Assembly: GCA_963790475.1 (NCBI GenBank)
Contig: CAWBOS010000006.1
Coordinates: 736,001-800,000, forward strand
From: an uncultured delta proteobacterium
Lineage (GTDB): Bacteria; Desulfobacterota; RBG-13-43-22
DNA: 64,000 bases
Reading direction: 5' to 3'
In this document: positions 16,738-24,221 of the stretch, in pieces
How positions within the stretch are numbered: position 1 is the stretch's first letter
Layout: the number at the start of each line of letters is the position of its first letter
Made by a program: the position numbers and the translations under genes
The notes under the pieces: model-generated
Seen by the model: only the letters and a program-made list of their open reading frames with translations
The model's database searches: none
What the model was told of the DNA's origin: nothing

Positions 16738-18366
16738 TCACAAAGGGATATTGCCGTGTTTCCGTAACGGCTTGTTGATTTGCTTGCCTTCCAGAACCTG
16801 CAGTCCTCTAATCAGGCGGTGCCGGGTACTTCGGGGGAAAATGACGTCGTCAATATAACCCCTTTGGGCGGCCAGAAAGGGGTTGGCGAAGGTTTGACGG
16901 TATTCCTCGGTTTTTTGCGACAGAAGGGCTTCCGGATCAGGGGCCTTTTGAATCTCTTTTCGATAAATGACTTCGGCGGCACCTCTGGGGCCCAACACGG
17001 CGATTTCGGCCGTCGGCCAGGCATAATTGATATCGCAGCGAATATGTTTGGAATTCATCACCACGTAGGCCCCCCCATAGGCTTTGCGAACGATAACCGA
17101 AATCCGGGGGACCGTAGCTTCGACAAAGGCATACAGCAGCTTAGCGCCGTGGCGTATGATTCCACCGTGTTCCTGTTCCGGTCCGGGCATGAAACCGGGG
17201 ACATCCACCAGACAAATCAAAGGGATATTGAAGGCGTCACAAAAACGGACAAATCGAGCGGCCTTAGTCGAGGCATTGGAATCCAATACCCCGGCCAGGA
17301 CTGCCGGCTGATTGGCGATCAGACCTATCGTCTGCCCGCCCAGGCGGCCGAACCCGCAAAGGATGTTCCGGGCAAAACGGGCTTGAATTTCCATAAACTC
17401 CGCGCCATCAAGAATGCTGTGAATTAAAACCTTCATATCATAACTCTGATTGGGGTTGATGGGAACCAGGTAGTCCAGGGCCGGATCTTCGCGGTCGGCT
17501 GGGTCCCTTAGATCCAGAATAGGCGCTGTCTGCCGATTATGCGATGGAAGATAATTAATCAGGCGCCTGATTTCCCTCAGGCAAAGAATATCATTCGGAA
17601 AAACAAAATGAGCCACCCCGCTTTTCTGGTTGTGAACCGCAGCCCCACCTAGATCTTCGGAACTGATTTCCTGATGGGTCACGGTCTTAACTACGTTAGG
17701 TCCGGTGACAAACATATTGGAAGTATGTTCCACCATGAAAGTAAAGTCGGTCATGGCCGGACTATAAACCGCCCCGCCGGCACAGGGACCCATAACGCAG
17801 GAGATTTGAGGGACTACCCCGCTGGCCAGGACGTTGCGATTAAATATCTCACCATAAGCGGCCAGGGCGTCCACGCCTTCTTGAATACGCGCCCCTCCGG
17901 AATCGTTAAGTCCTATTATCGGGGCCCCTACCCGGACGGCATGATCCATGACTTTGCAGATTTTTTGGGAATGGGCCTCTCCCAATGATCCGCCGACCAT
18001 GGTAAAGTCCTGGCTGAAGACAAAAACCTCTCGACCGTCAATGGTGCCGTGACCGGTAATCACGCCATCCCCCGGATAGTTGCGCTCTTTTCCAAAAGCA
18101 CCTCCCCGACCGGTTTTCAATAGATCAAATTCTTCCATAGACCCTTCGTCCAACAGCAGATCGAGACGTTCCCGGGCGGAGAGTTTTCCTTTTTTATGCT
18201 GAATGGCTATCTGCTCTGTTCCGCCCCCCTGGATGGCTTCAATACGCATCCCCTGCAGGACACCCAGATTATTTTGGATGGGTGTGGTGTTATCTTCGGG
18301 AGGGGATGCCGGCTTTGTTTTCTTCTTGGACGATAGAGTTTTTCCCGGGATCGTTTTCCGATTCAT
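16738..18366 (-). CDS. pccB: Acyl-CoA (propionyl-CoA) carboxylase carboxyltransferase beta subunit
   Basis: DSGGARIQEG, CAGGAVY, DVPGF, RKAYGGAY, KHGNIPL; ATG 18366 with GGAG RBS. Confidence 0.92.
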   Translation of the reverse strand: MNRKTIPGKTLSSKKKTKPASPPEDNTTPIQNNLGVLQGMRIEAIQGGGTEQIAIQHKKGKLSARERLDLLLDEGSMEEFDLLKTGRGGAFGKERNYPGDGVITGHGTIDGREVFVFSQDFTMVGGSLGEAHSQKICKVMDHAVRVGAPIIGLNDSGGARIQEGVDALAAYGEIFNRNVLASGVVPQISCVMGPCAGGAVYSPAMTDFTFMVEHTSNMFVTGPNVVKTVTHQEISSEDLGGAAVHNQKSGVAHFVFPNDILCLREIRRLINYLPSHNRQTAPILDLRDPADREDPALDYLVPINPNQSYDMKVLIHSILDGAEFMEIQARFARNILCGFGRLGGQTIGLIANQPAVLAGVLDSNASTKAARFVRFCDAFNIPLICLVDVPGFMPGPEQEHGGIIRHGAKLLYAFVEATVPRISVIVRKAYGGAYVVMNSKHIRCDINYAWPTAEIAVLGPRGAAEVIYRKEIQKAPDPEALLSQKTEEYRQTFANPFLAAQRGYIDDVIFPRSTRHRLIRGLQVLEGKQINKPLRKHGNIPL

Positions 18367-18391
18367 GCTTTCTCCATTAATAATGATAAAA

Positions 18392-18423
18392 TCGTAAAAA
18401 GTCGTCACCCCGGCGAAAGCCGG
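18392..18423 (+). repeat. Left part of REP/MITE-like palindromic repeat, truncated
   Basis: tcgtaaaaagtcgtcaccccggcgaaagccgg matches the start of the element at 27093. Confidence 0.8.
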
Positions 18424-18435
18424 TCCCGCCTATAA

Positions 18436-18464
18436 TTGTGCCATATGGCATTGAATGGTAAAAT
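18436..18464 (+). promoter_or_regulatory. Promoter with palindromic operator for DUF1670 pair
   Basis: TTGTGC-N17-TAAAAT with TGn; perfect palindrome TGCCATATGGCA at 18439-18450. Confidence 0.55.
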
Positions 18465-18565
18465 GATGATCATGATTGGTAAAGGAGTTAAGTCTACCCA
18501 GGCGAAGAAATCCAAGCCACGGGTTAGACCGAAATCCGTTTTTCAACCTCAAGGGGAGGACCGGC

Positions 18566-19387
18566 ATGATCAACAACTCAGCACTCCAAAAATGGGATCG
18601 ACTGGCCCAGAAACAATTGGATCGACAGTTCATGAATGAAATCATCCAAGGTCTGCAATGCTCGCCTTTCGAAGCCGGTGCCATCCTGGACACCGTCTAC
18701 AAAGTGTATCGACCTTATTTTGAAACCAGTGGCACGCTTAAGCCAGGGCAATTACTCTTTCAGGTAATTGCGGTGGAAGCGTCCCCGAATAAACCTTTAG
18801 CTCAGGGCCGACAAGTGACCGTAACGCTGACTCTCGATTCCGGTCCGGAGGACCTGAAGATCCGAAAGCAAAAAGGGATCATCGGACTCAGGCAGCACCG
18901 ACTCCAGCGGGTTTGTCACGAAGCCTTCCAACAAGGAGGCTTGTTGACCCTGGAGGACTTGGCCAATCGGTTGTTCAATTGTGGCGAAAGAACCCTGTCT
19001 CGAGATCTGCAGGCCCTCCAAGAAAAAAAGGTTCTCTTGCCCCTTCGTTCCACGATTAAAGATATGGGCCGTTCCATTTCCCATCGTAACCTAATCGTCC
19101 AGGAATGGCTCCAAGGAAAAGAATATACCGAAATCGCTCAGACCACCCATCATAGTATTCCTGCCATAAAAAACTATATCGACAAATTCAAACGGGTCAT
19201 CGCTTTAACCGAGGAAGGATTTGACCGCCATACCATCGCCTTCCTGGTCAAACTTTCGGCTCAACTGGTTGAAGTCTATTATCAGCTTTATCAAACTCTT
19301 ACGATCGTTCCTCATCGGAAAGAAGAATTGTGCCTTTTTCTAAAAAAAAAGAGCCCCTTCCCGACGCCGCCCAGGAGGATCCGATGA
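18566..19387 (+). CDS. DUF1670-family HTH protein (copy 1)
   Basis: EAFQQGGLLTLEDLA, RTLSRD, DMGRSISHR, HSIPAIKNY; ATG 18566 with GGAGG RBS. Confidence 0.8.
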   Translation: MINNSALQKWDRLAQKQLDRQFMNEIIQGLQCSPFEAGAILDTVYKVYRPYFETSGTLKPGQLLFQVIAVEASPNKPLAQGRQVTVTLTLDSGPEDLKIRKQKGIIGLRQHRLQRVCHEAFQQGGLLTLEDLANRLFNCGERTLSRDLQALQEKKVLLPLRSTIKDMGRSISHRNLIVQEWLQGKEYTEIAQTTHHSIPAIKNYIDKFKRVIALTEEGFDRHTIAFLVKLSAQLVEVYYQLYQTLTIVPHRKEELCLFLKKKSPFPTPPRRIR

Positions 19388-20133
19388 TTAAAGCGCCGGA
19401 CAGTCAAAAACGATATAACGCCGCCAGAGATCGCTTCCTCCAGGCGGGAATGATCAACTTTTTCGCCCGTGAATTCCCCAAACTCTTTGGCCCAGTGATG
19501 CGGCAAAAACTGGCCGAAGAAATTGTTGGTCTTTTTGAAAGCCTATCCCCGGAAGTCAAGCGACTGAAACCGGGGCAAATCCTTTGGAATGCCCTGGACC
19601 AGAAAACACGGGGCGATTCACCCCGCCGCAGATATGTTCCGGTCGTGTTATCCATCATTACCCCGGAGGATGTAGAACGACTGGCTCAAGGCCAGCCCCT
19701 GTCCCAGATCGCTGAAAAGGCCATCGCCCGCATAATCTTGGAAGCTCATGACCAAGGCGGCATCCTTTCCATGCGCGATATCGGCTTGCTCCTCTTAAAA
19801 CATCCATCCCAGGTCTCTCGGTTAAGAAAAAATTATGAGAAAGATCAGGGCTGCACTCTGCCGCATACCGGTGCCTTACATGACATGGGATCTTGTCTGT
19901 CCCATAAAACCACCATTCTGCAGAAGGTACTTGTCGAAAAAAAAGATCCGGCCGATGTCGCCAGAGAATGTCGTCATACTCAGCAAGCGGTCGACCGATA
20001 CCTTAAAGACTATCATCGTGTTAAAACGGTTTATGACCAAAATCAAGACCTAAATTATATCCATATCGTAACCGGATTAGCCAAACATGTGGTTAAACAG
20101 TACATTAACATCGTCAATCATGAAAACTTTTAA
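19384..20133 (+). CDS. DUF1670-family HTH protein (copy 2, divergent paralogue)
   Basis: EAHDQGGILSMRDI, DMGSCLSHK, HTQQAVDRY; ATGA overlap and AGGAGG RBS. Confidence 0.8.
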   Translation: MIKAPDSQKRYNAARDRFLQAGMINFFAREFPKLFGPVMRQKLAEEIVGLFESLSPEVKRLKPGQILWNALDQKTRGDSPRRRYVPVVLSIITPEDVERLAQGQPLSQIAEKAIARIILEAHDQGGILSMRDIGLLLLKHPSQVSRLRKNYEKDQGCTLPHTGALHDMGSCLSHKTTILQKVLVEKKDPADVARECRHTQQAVDRYLKDYHRVKTVYDQNQDLNYIHIVTGLAKHVVKQYINIVNHENF

Positions 20134-20154
20134 CTTGACCCGCCTACGGCGGGA

Positions 20155-20249
20155 TTGCCCTCATCCTTCATCATTGCGACGTACTTCTACGTACGTCTCA
20201 TTCCTCAGGATTTCGGGCGCCTTGTATCTGGACCTTTTTGAGCAACCTG
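20155..20249 (-). repeat. Truncated copy of the MITE-like element at 63500-63624
   Basis: Reverse complement aligns closely with 63500-63594; second terminal repeat missing. Confidence 0.9.
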
Positions 20250-20275
20250 TTAATAATGAGTTTTTCTACAAACAG

Positions 20276-21013
20276 TTAACTTATACCCGCGTTTGCTCTT
20301 TTTTGAAGAATCCGCCTGGCCGCCATTCGGACCGCAGCCGGAAGCATCAACCATTCATAAGGCAAGACCACTTCCTGCAGGGCCTTGGCTGCCTGTTTCG
20401 GATCCATCAACCCTTCACAAAAACCCTTTACGATGGTGCCCGGTATCAAAACTGCCTGCCGCAATAACATATCCCCGCCGTCATAATCCAACGTGGCCTT
20501 ATGCACGGTCGGATAGGTATAAAAATTATCCAACACCGTTTTCTTGGCGCGATAAATTAAGTCTTTCACTTCTTCCAGGACATGCTGGTGAACGGCCAGG
20601 GCGTACATCTTATCCCCGCCGTGACGGGCCGGATCGGCCGGATGAATATTATATATGTCCATCCCTTCAATCGGATAGACCTTATGAATACAGCCGACCA
20701 GAAAAATCAAATCCGTAAAGGTCGATTTCAAGATCCTGTTAACTGCGGCATTGAAATGATCCAACCCGGAATATTCTTTGTAATCGATCACCTCGCTGCG
20801 CACTCCATGGCTCCGGGCTTTTTCCAGACAACCGGCCCCTTTCCTGGTGCTGATCAGTATCGGCGGATTAATCTCCGGGATACATCCCGCCTCCCAGGCG
20901 GCCATGATGGAATTGGCATCCGTGCCGGAACCGGAAGCAATTAAGGCCAAATTAATCTTATCCGTGCCTGAGCTGCTTTTTGGCGAATAATCCTGTTTCA
21001 TTCCCTTTTCCAT
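20276..21013 (-). CDS. Divergent formyltransferase (PurN-like)
   Basis: LIASGSGTDA, NIHPA, HGG, TVH, YDGG motifs. Confidence 0.75.
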   Translation of the reverse strand: MEKGMKQDYSPKSSSGTDKINLALIASGSGTDANSIMAAWEAGCIPEINPPILISTRKGAGCLEKARSHGVRSEVIDYKEYSGLDHFNAAVNRILKSTFTDLIFLVGCIHKVYPIEGMDIYNIHPADPARHGGDKMYALAVHQHVLEEVKDLIYRAKKTVLDNFYTYPTVHKATLDYDGGDMLLRQAVLIPGTIVKGFCEGLMDPKQAAKALQEVVLPYEWLMLPAAVRMAARRILQKRANAGIS

Positions 21014-21152: not shown

Positions 21153-24100
21153 TTATTTTGTTGCTTCTTCGACGGTCTTGATCTCCTCCTCTGTCAGCCC
21201 ATATAGATCATAAACCAGTTGGTCGATTTGGAGGTCGGTTGCGTCGATCTGGCGCTGGAGGACGATCTTTTCTTGGTCAGTTTTGGCCTCGGCCACTTGC
21301 TTATGTAAGGACAGCATTTGCTCGACATGGGCGACCATTTGGTCATGATGGGCCGTTTCTGCGGAGTCGCGCTTCATAATAGAAACTATTGGTAATTGCG
21401 CCAGGAATTGACGGTTGGCAGAAAGCCAGCCCCCTCGAAAGGGTGCACTGACAAAAGGAAAATACCAACGCAAAAGTTTTGAATTAAGCAATCCGAGAAG
21501 ATATATCATACCCAGCTCTTGAAATGCAGGCTTTAAAGTAATACCCCCAACGTCCACATTGTCCAGGAAATGACTGCCTTCTTGGTCATAAGCAGCATAT
21601 AATTTATCGACAAGGCGTGGAACGCACAGCTTTGGGAAAGATTGTCGTGCCATGTTTTTAAGGTAAAGATATCCGTACCAATGTGTTCCCTTTGCTTTTC
21701 CTTTTTCGCGTTCTTCTAATCGCTTTCTATTCTTTAGAAGGTATTCTGCGGTTTTTTGATAATTTTTAGAGATCAGATTGAAGTCAATCAATTTTACTAC
21801 TGAGTTTTCAATTCTATAGGGGAAAAGAATATATTGGCGGCGTGGCAAAGCGCGGTACCGGTTTACGTCTGATCCACTCACTAATGGGAACAATATATCT
21901 TTCTCAAATATCCAATCATCCCCAAGGGATTTGGATTTCAACCGCAAGGTGCGCGGTGTCTCTTCGATAAAATCCATAATGAATACATCATCTGCACTTG
22001 TTTGCAATCCAACAAAAACATCGGCTACCAATCCCAATTTTAAAGGTATCTCATTCAATCTCTCAAAAAGTCCAGCACTTTTTCCAATGGTAAAATTCCA
22101 TTCAGAAGGAGTAATTCTTGTTGAAGGAATTATTCTCTCGTTTGCCTTTCTCGTTTTGCTCCAGATATTCAAATCATCTACCTTAATAAATTGGAATTGT
22201 CTTGTACCTACCTTATCCAAGAATAAAAGACATGTATAAGTCGTCGCTCCGTCGAAGACCTGCTGTGCTCCAAAATGAACTATTTGAGAAAGGTGATTTC
22301 CCATTGAGATTGCATTGCGGAGAGGCTGGCCATACTGGGAATTAAAGAACTTGTGCGGCAGAATGAAGCCTAAATGCCCTTTAGGATTCAGAAGGCTCAG
22401 TCCTTTTTCAACAAAAACGACGTAAATGTCGTAATTGCCTTTACCGGCGGAAGCATAACGTTTCTTGTAAAACTCCACTTCAATAGGCGCCCACTCCTTT
22501 AAGGCTTGGATTCGCATGTAGGGTGGATTGCCAATGACTGCATCGAATCCCCCTGATTTCATGGCCTCGGGAAATTCGGTCTTCCAGTCAAAGGCATTGA
22601 TTCGATAAGCCTCATCTTCGTTCAAAAAGCTTAATTGCTGTCCTTGAGAAAAATCCGGCCCAATGAGGGAGTTGCCGCATTTGACATTATTGCCCAAATC
22701 TGGCAGGGCTCGTTCACGGAACAACTTGAGCTGTCTGGAGAAGGTTTGTTCGTTTTCTCCTTCCAGCACTTTTAATAAAAGCGATAGCTTGGTAACCTCC
22801 ACGGCTTGGGAGTCGATGTCCACTCCATAAATATTGTTCAGCAAGATGCGCTTACGCTCGGCAGTGGTTAGCTTCCACTCCCCCCTGTGACCTTGGCATA
22901 AAACAGGAGAACGTCCGGTGGTCCATTTCCGGGGTGTATTTTTCTGGTACCAGTCCAAATGCCAGCCCAGTAAATACTGATAGGCATTGATCAGGAATGA
23001 ACCCGACCCACAGGCCGGGTCCAAAATACGAATTTTAGCCCCCTGTTTGGGCGTCTTTCCGGTTACCAATTTCCCCAGGGTATTTTTAACGATGTAATCC
23101 ACAATATAAGTGGGAGTGTAATATACTCCACCGGCCTTCTTGACCTCCGGCTTGTCCTCTACGACTGCCCGGTGTCCGGCAGTCAGACGAATGACCTTCC
23201 CCAAAAACTGTTCATACACCTGGCCGAGGATATCGGCCGGCAGAACGAAAAATTCATAAGGGCTGTCGGGATAGTAAAGGTCCTTGATGATTTCCTTCAG
23301 CGGCGCATCATCAATAATCAAGTTGGGGGTGAGCCGGTCCGGTTCTTCATTCCGCCCTTTTTCTAAGGAAAAATGAAACAGGCCGGAATTATAACGTTCA
23401 TCGGCCAAACGGAAAAAATGATCAAGGCGGCGGTAAACATTGGTCCCATTGACTAACGATAAAAGCCGGTTGTAGTCTTCAATGCCCCGGTCCTCACAGA
23501 TACGCAGGAAAATGATCCGGTCGATAATTCGTTGGACGGAAAAGTTGAGCTCCCGCTGTGTGAGGTCCGGATTGCGCAGGGCCAGATTGCGGGCCAGGAG
23601 TTCCCGCCAGGATTCGATCTCTTTAAGAAAGGCCGTGTCCACCTCGGCCGTTCCTTTTTTCCCCTTACCCGCTTCGGCATATTTATCAAATGAACCCTTA
23701 AGAACCGCCTCATGAGAAAAGACAGAGACAATTTCTTCCCAATGTTGAACATATTCCTGTACGGTTAGATAAAGGACGCGGGCGGTTGAGGCTTTATCGG
23801 CCTTATCCGGTTTGATCCGGCAGTCATAAACAGCGAATTCTTCGAAATTGGTCAGGATACTCAAGGGAAGTTTAGCCGACCAGGCATAGCGGCGAAGCTG
23901 AAAGGCCGCGCCAATGTCTTCCTTAATCTTGATCGAGGGTTTCTTGGCTTCAATGAAAAATTTTCGGGTGCCGCCGATTCGGAAACAGTAATCCGGGGCT
24001 TTGGTCACTCCCCCCACTTTAATGGCATCTTCATGAATGACATCCTTATAGGACTCGGCATACCCCTGCTTGTTGTTCACGTCCCAGCCCAAGGCCTCAA

Positions 24101-24221
24101 AAAAAGGATCGACAAACTCCCGGCGCAACTGGGTCTCGTTGTAAGGGTCGGAATGATAGGCTTGATGGTTTTGTTCAAACCGGTTGATCAGTTCGGTGAT
24201 AACAGGAGGAAGTGCGATCAT
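21153..24221 (-). CDS. Type IIG (Eco57I-like) fused restriction endonuclease/N6-adenine methyltransferase
   Basis: PD...EAK nuclease, GVYYTP, DPACGSG, GNPPY, C-terminal TRD and LVYDLYGL tail. Confidence 0.92.
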   Translation of the reverse strand: MIALPPVITELINRFEQNHQAYHSDPYNETQLRREFVDPFFEALGWDVNNKQGYAESYKDVIHEDAIKVGGVTKAPDYCFRIGGTRKFFIEAKKPSIKIKEDIGAAFQLRRYAWSAKLPLSILTNFEEFAVYDCRIKPDKADKASTARVLYLTVQEYVQHWEEIVSVFSHEAVLKGSFDKYAEAGKGKKGTAEVDTAFLKEIESWRELLARNLALRNPDLTQRELNFSVQRIIDRIIFLRICEDRGIEDYNRLLSLVNGTNVYRRLDHFFRLADERYNSGLFHFSLEKGRNEEPDRLTPNLIIDDAPLKEIIKDLYYPDSPYEFFVLPADILGQVYEQFLGKVIRLTAGHRAVVEDKPEVKKAGGVYYTPTYIVDYIVKNTLGKLVTGKTPKQGAKIRILDPACGSGSFLINAYQYLLGWHLDWYQKNTPRKWTTGRSPVLCQGHRGEWKLTTAERKRILLNNIYGVDIDSQAVEVTKLSLLLKVLEGENEQTFSRQLKLFRERALPDLGNNVKCGNSLIGPDFSQGQQLSFLNEDEAYRINAFDWKTEFPEAMKSGGFDAVIGNPPYMRIQALKEWAPIEVEFYKKRYASAGKGNYDIYVVFVEKGLSLLNPKGHLGFILPHKFFNSQYGQPLRNAISMGNHLSQIVHFGAQQVFDGATTYTCLLFLDKVGTRQFQFIKVDDLNIWSKTRKANERIIPSTRITPSEWNFTIGKSAGLFERLNEIPLKLGLVADVFVGLQTSADDVFIMDFIEETPRTLRLKSKSLGDDWIFEKDILFPLVSGSDVNRYRALPRRQYILFPYRIENSVVKLIDFNLISKNYQKTAEYLLKNRKRLEEREKGKAKGTHWYGYLYLKNMARQSFPKLCVPRLVDKLYAAYDQEGSHFLDNVDVGGITLKPAFQELGMIYLLGLLNSKLLRWYFPFVSAPFRGGWLSANRQFLAQLPIVSIMKRDSAETAHHDQMVAHVEQMLSLHKQVAEAKTDQEKIVLQRQIDATDLQIDQLVYDLYGLTEEEIKTVEEATK

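What the first reader, a model, noticed from the sequence alone, without database searches (positions are those of the whole stretch)
18425..20153. Two-gene DUF1670 cassette looks like an undescribed site-specific mobile element targeting a small hairpin
Seen: two coupled paralogous genes with their own promoter and palindrome, no terminal inverted repeats and no DDE/HUH/serine motif, bounded by CCCGCCTA on both sides. Removing one repeat plus the interior restores the perfect hairpin TCCCGCC-TAC-GGCGGGA. The last stop lies 5 nt from the right repeat. Both proteins share DMG...SH[RK]...H[ST]xxA[IV]xxY, loosely recalling the His...Tyr end of tyrosine recombinases. Known: DUF1670 has no assigned function that I am aware of. 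Inference: a heterodimeric recombinase/transposase that integrates at these hairpins.
Basis: partly seen in the sequence, partly recalled or inferred. Interest (0 to 1): 0.88.

Follow-up and report, generated by a model that had tools for sequence, protein, structure and literature searches.

The report
New hairpin-targeting insertion sequence (DUF1670 pair)
The two DUF1670 genes form a small mobile DNA element, found across many bacterial and some archaeal phyla, that inserts precisely into the loop of GC-rich DNA hairpins and encodes no recognisable transposase, so it may use an undescribed kind of recombination enzyme.

Summary
The cassette is a real mobile element. This genome holds a second, complete copy (99% identical, another contig) and a 525-bp fragment in an efflux gene. 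PF07900 was over its cut-off in none of 13 congeners and matched in 7 of 401 genomes of the phylum.

Across 62 distinct insertion sites the element is 1.72-1.77 kb. It starts with TATA(A/T)T and carries the palindrome GCCAT(A/T)TGGC near both ends. It sits between the C-rich arm and the loop of a palindrome, mostly CCCGCC-N2-4-GGCGGG, with at most 1 nt duplicated.

If the ends abut they form TTGAC(T/A)-17 nt-TATA(A/T)T in all 57 distinct right ends. That points to a circular or tandem intermediate.

The window copy has lost its last 13 nt. Its right-hand CCCGCC is element sequence, not a target duplication. The family does have inverted-repeat ends.

Both proteins are predicted to be mostly helix-turn-helix domains, with no known catalytic fold found. 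One His and one Tyr are invariant family-wide. That these proteins are the recombinase is inference. No paper in the library mentions DUF1670.

The parts
18381..18423 (.). Left flank: part of a dispersed REP-like repeat (..AAAAAGTCGTCACCCCGGCGAAAGCCGG..), with the hairpin CCGGC-GAAA-GCCGG at 18410-18423.
   Evidence: 78 blastn-short hits of the left-flank piece in the own genome. Many short hits to query 1-44.
18424..18430 (.). Left (C-rich) arm of the target palindrome, TCCCGCC. The element starts immediately 3' of it.
   Evidence: Same left junction in the C10 copy. Of the 62 element rows classed, the last four flank bases are CGCC in 42, CTCC in 5..TT in 9 and other in 6. Left flanks are listed.
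18431..20144 (+). The element as present in the window (1,714 bp). It is a copy whose right tip (13 nt) is missing. The complete copy at G000:C10:1634301-1636027 is 1,727 bp.
   Evidence: 3 substitutions between the copies, and both ORFs intact in both.
18431..18450 (+). Left end: TATAAT at the very tip (18431-18436, -10-like), then the subterminal palindrome TGCCATATGGCA (18439-18450).
   Evidence: Left end found in 84 of 110 related loci. There are 18 distinct 20-mers, all beginning TA(T/C)nnT.
18566..19387 (+). orfA, 273 aa, DUF1670. ATG preceded by AAGGGGAGG. In-frame upstream TTG at 18476.
19384..20133 (+). orfB, 249 aa, DUF1670 paralogue. Its start overlaps the orfA stop (ATGA).
20134..20144 (+). 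Remnant of the right end, CTTGACCCGCC (-35-like TTGACC at 20135-20140). The following 13 nt (rest of the palindrome plus the 6-nt tip) present in the C10 copy are absent here.
   Evidence: Alignment of the C6 and C10 right junctions. Right ends of 98 loci.
20145..20154 (.). Target loop TAC (20145-20147) and right (G-rich) arm GGCGGGA (20148-20154).
   Evidence: Unoccupied copies of the same repeat read ..ATCCCGCC-NNN-GGCGGGATTGCC...
20148..20285 (.). Right flank: a ~130-bp dispersed repeat of a different family from the left flank, abundant in the genus. The window copy therefore sits at a junction of two repeat families.

Best explanation
The region is one copy of a previously unrecognised insertion-sequence family. 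The normal length is 1.72-1.77 kb, and its only genes are the two translationally coupled DUF1670 paralogues.

Shown here:
- The element has fixed ends. The left end is TATA(A/T)TTGTGCCATATGGCA. The right end is TTGACnnGCCAT(A/T)TGGC plus a 6-nt tip.
- It occurs at unrelated loci within and between genomes of many phyla.
- It always sits between the C-rich 5' arm and the loop of a GC-rich palindrome, mostly CCCGCC^N2-4 GGCGGG, often inside REP-like repeats.
- It duplicates at most one nucleotide of target.

Inferred:
(a) OrfA and OrfB together are the recombinase. They would probably act as a hetero-oligomer whose helix-turn-helix domains bind the subterminal palindromes and the target arms.
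(b) Transposition passes through a form with abutted ends, a circle or a tandem dimer. That form would create a consensus promoter, TTGAC(T/A)-17 nt-TATA(A/T)T, driving orfA-orfB.
(c) Integration is a conservative, site-specific-like reaction at the 3' side of the 5' arm. It may act on the hairpin folded in single-stranded DNA.
(d) The family-wide invariant His and Tyr (orfB H174 and Y206, orfA H173 and Y204) are the best candidates for catalytic residues.

The window copy itself is probably immobile. Its right tip is deleted exactly from an internal CCCGCC to the tip, and its two flanks come from different repeat families. It therefore marks a rearrangement or a partial-excision event.

My odds: mobile element about 0.95. 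DUF1670 pair is the recombinase about 0.65. Abutted-end intermediate about 0.6. Tyrosine chemistry about 0.3.
For: Copies. The own genome has a 99% identical full copy on C10 and a 100% identical 525-bp left-end fragment in an RND efflux-type gene on C12. The C6 and C10 copies differ at 3 positions, and both have intact ORFs.

Distribution. PF07900 was over its cut-off in none of 13 same-genus genomes; one had a 22-bit fragment below it. It matched in 7 of 401 genomes of the phylum, G000 included. Relatives of 55-85% identity occur in records titled Desulfobacterota, Bacteroidales, Bathyarchaeota, Pseudomonadota, Epsilonproteobacteria, Planctomycetia, Acidobacteria, Thermodesulfovibrionales, Cloacimonadota and Calditrichia. 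Near-identical elements sit in different phyla on the tree.

Repeat signature. For 113 of the 120 best orfB homologue clusters the longest contig is 5 kb or less. Several contigs stop exactly at an element tip.

Gene pair. orfA lies directly upstream of orfB in 20 of 25 genome loci. Four of the others are cut by a contig end and one is a relic.

Ends and target. There are 62 distinct sites with both flanks. Flank complementarity averages 5.5 perfect bp, against 3.41 (sd 0.19, max 4.02) for shuffled flank pairs. 37 of 62 sites have a stem of 5 bp or more with a 2-4 nt loop, and arms reach 14 bp. Unoccupied paralogous sites CCGGTCCCGCC-N2-3-GGCGGGATGGATTCC exist in the same genome and in a metagenome contig (X4 loose end at 18430).

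Junction promoter. The distance from TTGACN to the tip is 17 nt in 57 of 57 distinct right ends. The hexamer is TTGAC[TA] in 48 of 57. The left tip hexamer is TATAAT or TATATT in 12 of 18 distinct left ends. The integrated copy has no complete promoter there.

Element-encoded specificity. The ..CCCTT(T)^ target class is a single clade of the OrfA+OrfB tree (9 rows, SH-aLRT 100). In it the last base of the right tip is T instead of C, matching the last base of the left flank (62 of 62 sites, but one evolutionary event).

Proteins act together. Fused forms exist with two DUF1670 repeats (532 aa) and three repeats (930-952 aa). The complex prediction gives weak support. Score 0.47, best of 3 controls 0.00. 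The mark was reached by 58 of 80 solved complexes and 2 of 110 mismatched pairs, but at 0.60 or under by only 7 of those 80 and by both mismatches that passed. The runs agree in at least 51% of contacts, and the partner's pLDDT is at least 70.

Candidate catalytic residues. In 86 diverse members (22-62% identity, and 19% for orfA) only H174 and Y206 are invariant. R116, Q124, D167, K175, H198 and Y240 are conserved at 90% or more.
Against: No catalytic domain is recognisable. Pfam gives only DUF1670 and weak HTH hints, and NCBIfam gives nothing. Foldseek finds no PDB match at E <= 1e-3 for either model. The wide structural search peaks at Z 6.1-6.6 on HTH, sigma-4, TrpR and winged-helix domains only. 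The N-terminal ~100 residues were barely tested.

The predicted proteins are all-alpha with one beta hairpin, which looks like DNA binders rather than enzymes.

No abutted-end junction was found in Logan contigs of four runs or in metagenome contigs.

No orthologous empty site could be recovered from congeners.

The tyrosine-recombinase comparison is not significant (hhalign probability 1.3%).

The C/T covariation rests on one evolutionary event.

The truncated right junction of the window copy is seen in one assembly only. No laid contig bridges 20144/20145.
Confidence: 0.62

Rival explanations
1. The element is mobile, but OrfA and OrfB are only DNA-binding specificity or regulatory factors. 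Strand cleavage and joining would be done by a widely conserved host enzyme that the pair recruits to the ends and to the hairpin target. Candidates are a Xer-type tyrosine recombinase, a topoisomerase, or replication-linked hairpin processing. XerCD-dependent integrating elements work this way.
For: Both proteins are predicted to be mostly HTH or winged-helix modules, with no catalytic fold found. The own genome carries many tyrosine recombinase genes (15 PF00589 matches).
Against: The same two-gene unit moves among bacterial and archaeal phyla with no other gene. That demands a host partner conserved across all of them. The targets are not dif-like single sites but dispersed hairpins. An invariant Tyr and His across the whole family is unusual for purely sequence-specific binders whose targets differ.
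Confidence: 0.22
2. An RNA-guided element of the IS110/IS1111 type. A structured RNA from the 5' region would select the target, with the proteins as a divergent recombinase.
For: The element shares IS110-like behaviour: insertion into REP-like palindromes, no target duplication, and -35 in the right end with -10 in the left end. In 31 relatives a hairpin in the 5' region shows compensatory changes in 15 of 16 predicted pairs.
Against: No Rfam family matches. The hairpin's conserved apical sequence is the same in lineages with different target classes. It is absent from the window's own lineage. The region is also in frame with orfA and encodes a conserved peptide. No DEDD-type transposase domain is present.
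Confidence: 0.05
3. Not a mobile element: a vertically inherited two-gene regulatory or defence cassette that happens to lie between repeats.
For: The proteins look like transcription factors. PADLOC was not searched.
Against: Identical copies lie at unrelated loci in one genome, with a fragment inside a disrupted gene. 62 distinct flanks share the same precise ends. The family was not found over cut-off in the 13 congeners searched. The flanking genes are not adjacent in congeners.
Confidence: 0.02

Closest known systems
IS110/IS1111 family (bridge-RNA / seekRNA-guided DEDD recombinases, e.g. IS621, ISPpu9, ISPpu10)
   Same: Site-specific insertion into REP-like palindromic repeats. No or minimal target duplication. 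Weak or subterminal inverted repeats. A promoter assembled from a -35 in the right end and a -10 in the left end when the ends abut in a circular intermediate. A sizeable 5' non-coding or leader region. For the family's properties I saw only the search listing and abstract starts of PMC11187229, PMC13626964, 10.1101/2025.01.17.633520 and 10.64898/2026.03.19.712850. The rest is recalled.
   Different: There is no DEDD/RuvC-like transposase. Instead there are two ~250-270-aa DUF1670 HTH proteins. No guide RNA was identified. The target is defined by a hairpin or palindrome with a short C-rich motif, not by a programmable 14-nt match.
IS200/IS605 family (HUH Y1 single-strand transposons, e.g. IS608)
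   Same: No target duplication. Subterminal palindromes at both ends. Insertion immediately 3' of a short specific sequence, which then abuts the left end. The two truncated copies here end right after internal target-like C-runs (..TTGACCCGCC^ and ..TTGACCC^). That is what use of an internal pseudo left-cleavage site during excision would give. The IS608 mechanism is recalled, not read here.
   Different: No HUH/Y1 protein is present, and no beta-sheet-rich fold is predicted. The end palindromes are 10-12 nt with no loop, so they suit dimer binding on duplex DNA better.
IS1397 / ISKpn1 (IS3 family) insertion into the loops of REP/PU palindromes
   Same: The target is the loop of a repeated extragenic palindrome (recalled knowledge).
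   Different: Those are DDE elements with 3-4-bp duplications and typical inverted repeats.
Tyrosine recombinases acting on folded hairpins (integron IntI-attC, XerCD with CTX phage)
   Same: A hairpin-shaped target. A possible single-strand exchange, which would explain why the loop bases always end up on one side. An invariant His...His...Tyr with spacing 24 and 8, against 26 and 9 in the own genome's integrases.
   Different: No significant sequence or profile similarity. No integrase fold among the structural hits. No HxxR arginine at +3. The distance from the candidate Arg to the Tyr is about 90 residues, much shorter than in the aligned integrase domains, where R37 to Y167 is 130 residues.
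Pfam PF07900 (DUF1670)
   Same: Both proteins are clear members.
   Different: The family has no assigned function. Zero papers in the searchable library mention DUF1670 or PF07900.

Membership tests
Pfam DUF1670 (PF07900) | Score above the family's gathering cut-off (25 bits). | tested here: met
   orfA 158.9 bits, orfB 163.4 bits.
Insertion sequence (generic) | Several copies with the same ends at unrelated loci. | tested here: met
   Two full copies and one fragment in the own genome. 62 distinct insertion sites across loci.
Insertion sequence (generic) | Encodes the enzyme that moves it. | not testable with these tools
   Only orfA and orfB are conserved in the element. Activity is inferred, not shown.
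Insertion sequence (generic) | Target-site duplication of fixed length. | tested here: not met
   At most 1 nt is shared between the left flank and the right tip (62 of 62 sites). The loop bases occur once only.
IS110/IS1111 | DEDD-type transposase detectable by sequence. | tested here: not met
   No such Pfam hit at E <= 0.1 for either protein.
IS110/IS1111 | Promoter formed across abutted ends. | tested here: met
   In silico only: TTGACN-17 nt-TATA(A/T)T in 57 of 57 distinct right ends. No junction molecule was observed.
IS110/IS1111 | Bridge or seeker RNA complementary to target and donor. | tested here: inconclusive
   No Rfam hit. The conserved 5' hairpin does not vary with target class.
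IS200/IS605 | HUH Y1 transposase. | tested here: not met
   No Pfam hit.
IS200/IS605 | Insertion 3' of a short specific sequence without duplication. | tested here: met
Tyrosine recombinase | Sequence or profile match to the Phage_integrase catalytic domain. | tested here: not met
   No Pfam hit. hhalign of 86 DUF1670 sequences against 7 own-genome integrase domains gives probability 1.3%.
Tyrosine recombinase | R..K..HxxR..H/W..Y catalytic residues. | tested here: inconclusive
   H174 and Y206 are invariant. H198, K175 and R116 are conserved at 90% or more, with similar H-H-Y spacing, but there is no Arg at +3 of the first His.
Tyrosine recombinase | Integrase catalytic fold. | tested here: inconclusive
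   Not among the listed structural matches. An absence there does not exclude it.
Serine recombinase | Resolvase catalytic domain. | tested here: not met
   No Pfam hit. Only the HTH domain of chain 2r0q_C aligns (Z 5.1-5.5).
DDE transposase | RNase H-like catalytic fold. | tested here: inconclusive
   No sequence hit. The models are all-alpha with one beta hairpin. The fold searches list no RNase H-like chain.

The most novel reading that the evidence does not exclude
The DUF1670 pair is a new class of DNA recombinase or transposase built from helix-turn-helix modules, with an invariant His/Tyr active site and no fold relation to the DDE, DEDD, HUH, serine or classical tyrosine enzymes. It would recognise DNA hairpins by shape plus a 4-6-nt motif and insert a 1.7-kb circle seamlessly at the base of the loop, probably by single-strand exchange. 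Its target preference is heritable and has switched at least once (CCCGCC to CCCTTT), so it may be re-engineerable.
Probability: 0.35. Interest if true: 0.92.

Novelty: new variant of a known kind. Interest (0 to 1): 0.8.

Why it matters
Every well-studied prokaryotic insertion sequence uses one of a handful of enzyme classes.

Here a compact element is abundant in sediment, soil and groundwater metagenomes. More than 1,000 homologue clusters were found for each protein, and 971 clusters at 50% identity matched the orfB profile. It spans bacterial and archaeal phyla and moves with only two small proteins of an uncharacterised family.

If they are the recombinase, DUF1670 gets a function and a new transposition chemistry becomes testable. 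A small, seamless, hairpin-specific integrase would also be of interest as a tool.

It matters for annotation too. These genes are currently named 'hypothetical' or 'DUF1670 domain-containing', and the element breaks metagenome assemblies at its tips.

It may also shed light on how REP-like repeats serve as landing pads, and on genome rearrangement, since the window copy sits at a junction of two repeat families.

Tried and rejected
Abutted-end junctions. Logan contigs of four runs laid on 18100-20500 showed no joints. A degenerate right-end/left-end junction pattern found 0 stretches in metagenome contigs. Contigs drop rare forms, so this is weak.

Expression. No RNA holder was listed for the stretch.

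Orthologous empty sites in congeners. The flanks of all three copies were searched in the 13 other same-genus genomes (14 with G000). The two sides never lie together, and the C12 flanks were not found at all. No direct before/after pair was obtained, so paralogous empty repeat copies were used instead.

Other collections. Plasmids gave no match by tblastn. Viral contigs gave no relative. PHROGs gave only weak regulator hits for orfA. NCBIfam gave none.

Longer fused forms. The word-based search found none. The exhaustive profile search later did find them. The UvrD- and CHC2-zinc-ribbon 'fusions' are probably read-through from disrupted host genes, because the orfA frame stays open to the left tip. 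I did not verify this.

Solved-structure sequence searches found nothing at E below 1. The ESM Atlas gave only HTH_23 clusters at 0.81 or lower.

Target-duplication reading of CCCGCC(TA): rejected.

Reading the flanking CCCGCC/GGCGGG as element inverted repeats: rejected. The 2-4 nt between the tip and the G-arm differ between near-identical elements, the arms differ beyond 7 nt, and empty sites exist.

Guide-RNA idea: no correlation between the hairpin sequence and target class.

The tree is the quick IQ-TREE result, because the careful search did not finish. Rows with stop codons, partial genes or identical proteins were dropped, leaving 62 rows.

Supplementary files of papers were not consulted. 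For the papers I saw only the listing and abstract starts.
Full report
WHAT IS IN THE WINDOW

Between a divergently oriented carboxyltransferase gene and a formyltransferase-like gene lie two + strand genes. The carboxyltransferase gene is on the - strand, with its start near 18366. The formyltransferase-like gene is at 20276-21013, also on the - strand. orfA is 18566-19387 (273 aa) and orfB is 19384-20133 (249 aa), with an ATGA overlap.

Both genes are clear members of Pfam DUF1670, with only weak helix-turn-helix side hits and no NCBIfam model.

The palindrome TGCCATATGGCA, the two CCCGCCTA octamers and the hairpin CCCGCC-TAC-GGCGGG are all at the stated places.

IT IS A MOBILE ELEMENT

The own genome (20 contigs, 6.34 Mb) holds a second copy on contig C10 at 99% identity. 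It also holds a 525-bp left-end fragment at 100% identity inside a gene that reads like an RND efflux pump on C12. The two full copies differ at three positions, and both keep intact ORFs.

Among 13 other genomes of the genus, PF07900 was found only as one fragment below the cut-off. Among 401 genomes of the phylum it was found in 7, G000 included.

In at least three congeners the two genes that flank the window copy lie on different contigs, although the contigs run well past the junction. So the pair is neither syntenic nor vertically inherited.

More than a thousand homologue clusters exist for each protein. For 113 of the 120 best orfB clusters the longest contig is 5 kb or less, which is the signature of a repeat that breaks assemblies.

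A scan of one genome per species returned 25 loci from very different phyla, including an archaeal MAG, at 55-71% identity (one 89-residue relic, L052, at 91%). orfA lies directly upstream of orfB wherever the contig allows (20 of 25). A metagenome scan added 80 loci. No relative was found on plasmids or viral contigs.

ENDS AND TARGET

I located the ends in 110 loci. The left end was found in 84 and the right end in 98.

The left end is TATA(A/T)TTGTGCCATATGGCA. The right end is (C)TTGACnnGCCAT(A/T)TGGC followed by a 6-nt tip such as GATAAC, GATATC, ATTAAC or AATAAC. Near-identical elements at different sites show that whatever follows the tip is target.

So the family does have imperfect inverted-repeat ends, centred on the same 10-nt palindrome.

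The left flank ends in ..CCCGCC in most loci (CGCC 42, CTCC 5..TT 9, other 6 of 62 element rows). After the right tip come 2-4 variable bases and then a G-rich run complementary to the left flank.

In 62 distinct sites the perfect complementarity averages 5.5 bp. For shuffled flank pairs it is 3.41 (sd 0.19), and those already share the core motif. 37 of the 62 sites have 5 bp or more, and arms reach 14 bp.

The element therefore sits between the 5' arm and the loop of a GC-rich palindrome, and the loop bases always stay with the right end. Nothing is duplicated except possibly one base. The last base of the left flank equals the last base of the right tip in 62 of 62 sites (C/C 53, T/T 9).

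Unoccupied targets of the same repeat subfamily (CCGGTCCCGCC-TA/AT/AAA-GG..GGATGGATTCC) exist in the same genome. One also appears as a loose end of a metagenome contig. Unoccupied copies of the window's right-flank repeat read ..ATCCCGCC-NNN-GGCGGGATTGCC...

Many insertions lie in REP-like repeats. The motif [AG]ATGAC occurs within 50 nt in 9 of 74 right flanks, where about 2% per flank is expected by chance.

The ..CCCTT(T) target class is one well-supported clade of the protein tree. Target preference is therefore inherited with the element. The C-to-T covariation, though perfect, counts as a single event.

In the complete C10 copy the right end reads CTTGACCCGCC-ATTTGGCGATAAC, followed by TTT-GGCGGGA. 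In the window copy CTTGACCCGCC is followed directly by TAC-GGCGGGA.

So the window copy lacks its last 13 nt, that is half the palindrome plus the tip. The right-hand CCCGCC is element sequence. The apparent 8-bp direct repeat is a coincidence of the target arm plus the element's TA on the left, and element CCCGCC plus loop TA on the right.

The C12 fragment likewise ends after an internal ..GTTGACCC, joined to CAG-GGGCGGGG. Both truncations run from an internal target-like C-run exactly to the position of the right tip. Use of an internal pseudo-site in an excision-type reaction would produce this. Recombination at the short identity would too.

The window copy's left and right flanks belong to two different repeat families. 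The locus is therefore also a rearrangement junction.

Caveat: this junction is seen in one assembly only. No laid contig bridges it.

HOW IT PROBABLY MOVES

The most conserved features of the ends are TTGAC in the right end and TATA(A/T)T at the very left tip. With the tip defined independently from flank comparison, the spacing between them when the ends abut is exactly 17 nt in all 57 distinct right ends. That is a consensus sigma-70 promoter that exists only in a circle or a head-to-tail dimer.

The integrated window copy has no complete promoter upstream of orfA.

This arrangement is known from IS families that transpose through circles, namely IS3, IS30, IS256 and IS110. For this I rely on the listing and abstract starts and on recalled knowledge.

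The lack of duplication, and the one-sided fate of the loop bases, argue against a staggered DDE-type cut. They favour a conservative or single-strand exchange at the 3' side of the 5' arm. That exchange might occur on the hairpin folded in single-stranded DNA, as with IS200/IS605, integron attC sites or XerCD on CTX phage (recalled).

I found no junction molecule, so this step is inferred.

THE PROTEINS

The AlphaFold models have mean pLDDT 79.7 (orfB) and 75.7 (orfA). Each shows N-terminal helices, one beta hairpin, a winged helix (about residues 100-165) and a C-terminal TrpR/sigma-4-like helical domain.

Foldseek finds nothing at E <= 1e-3. The wide search gives only DNA-binding domains at Z 6.6 or less, which is within the noise for helical models. 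It barely tests the N-terminal third. Profile searches of PDB sequences find nothing.

The exhaustive profile search counts 971 clusters at E <= 1e-3. It reveals single-chain relatives with two repeats (532 aa) or three repeats (930-952 aa). This supports the idea that the paralogues work as one assembly.

The complex prediction for OrfA with OrfB gives weak support only. The score is 0.47 and the best of 3 controls is 0.00. The mark was reached by 58 of 80 solved complexes and 2 of 110 mismatches, but at 0.60 or under by only 7 of the 80 and by both passing mismatches. The runs agree in at least 51% of contacts, and the partner's pLDDT is at least 70.

In an alignment of 86 diverse members the only invariant residues are H174 and Y206 (orfB numbering). 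R116, Q124, D167, K175, H198 and Y240 are conserved at 90% or more.

The spacing H-24-H-8-Y recalls the H-26-H-9-Y of the own genome's tyrosine recombinases. hhalign's only local alignment pairs H198 with their second His. The probability is 1.3%, so homology is not supported. The segment is also a textbook helix-turn-helix pattern.

I therefore treat the His/Tyr pair as candidate catalytic residues, not as evidence of membership.

OTHER OBSERVATIONS

In most relatives the region between the left end and the orfA ATG contains a hairpin with compensatory changes in 15 of 16 pairs (31 sequences). The hairpin surrounds a conserved core that is also translated in the orfA frame as ..KEGVARLEF... 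In about 40 of 52 distinct sequences that frame stays open up to the left tip. The window's lineage has a different hairpin there. No Rfam family matches.

WHAT IS KNOWN

No paper in the searchable library contains 'DUF1670' or 'PF07900'. Sources name these proteins 'hypothetical' or 'DUF1670 domain-containing'. I could not consult ISfinder, so an unpublished database entry cannot be excluded.

In behaviour the closest systems are IS110/IS1111 and IS200/IS605. The defining enzymes of both were tested for and not found.

VERDICT

This is a genuine new insertion-sequence family that targets hairpin loops.

That the DUF1670 pair is the recombinase, and what chemistry it uses, remain inference. 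Overall confidence is 0.62.

Noticed in passing
window 18381-18423 and 20148-20285; own genome generally: There are two dispersed repeat families. One is a REP/MITE-like unit (..AAAAAGTCGTCACCCCGGCGAAAGCCGGGGTCCAG...CTGGATTCCGGCTTTCGCCGGAATGAC..) with 78 short hits in the genome. The other is a ~130-bp repeat beginning ..GGCCCATCTATCCCGCC-NNN-GGCGGGATTGCCC.., with very many copies in all 14 genomes of the genus.
   Followed up: partly
L069 (G310:C223), about locus 1160-2600: A solitary orfA-like DUF1670 gene (52% identical) has no orfB. It is flanked by inverted repeats of about 70-100 bp instead of the usual ends. This may be a different element type or a domesticated copy.
   Followed up: no
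L030-L149, region 25-100 nt upstream of the orfA ATG: A conserved hairpin shows compensatory changes in 15 of 16 pairs. Its core also encodes ..KEGVARLEF.. in the orfA frame, and the frame is open to the element's left tip in most lineages. This may mean a longer OrfA isoform or a translational control element. It is absent from the window's lineage.
   Followed up: partly
P0256, P0282, P0295, P0299 (930-952 aa); P0335 (532 aa): These are single proteins with three or two DUF1670 repeats. Forms of 414-437 aa carry an extra N-terminal half-repeat.
   Followed up: partly
L014 = G019:C23 (same family as the window's genome), identical to L052: A relic holds only the last 89 codons of orfB (91% identical) plus an intact right end, next to AAG-GGCGGGA.
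   Followed up: no
window 21153-24221, - strand: A 1,022-aa ORF carries an NPPY-type N6-adenine methyltransferase motif (..GNPPYMRIQ..). It looks like a fused restriction-modification enzyme and lies just downstream of the element. I ran no domain search on it.
   Followed up: no
G000:C10:824463-825813, C13:166503-167853, C13:40171-41522: There are three copies of a pair of adjacent tyrosine-recombinase genes with identical or near-identical scores. This is probably another multi-copy mobile element in the genome.
   Followed up: no
L044 and L045; L032, L033, L034 and L035: Nearly identical elements (tree branch lengths 0-0.04) lie in records titled as different phyla: Acidobacteria and Thermodesulfovibrionales; Bathyarchaeota, Pseudomonadota and Epsilonproteobacteria. 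This means either very recent transfer or mis-binned repeat contigs.
   Followed up: no
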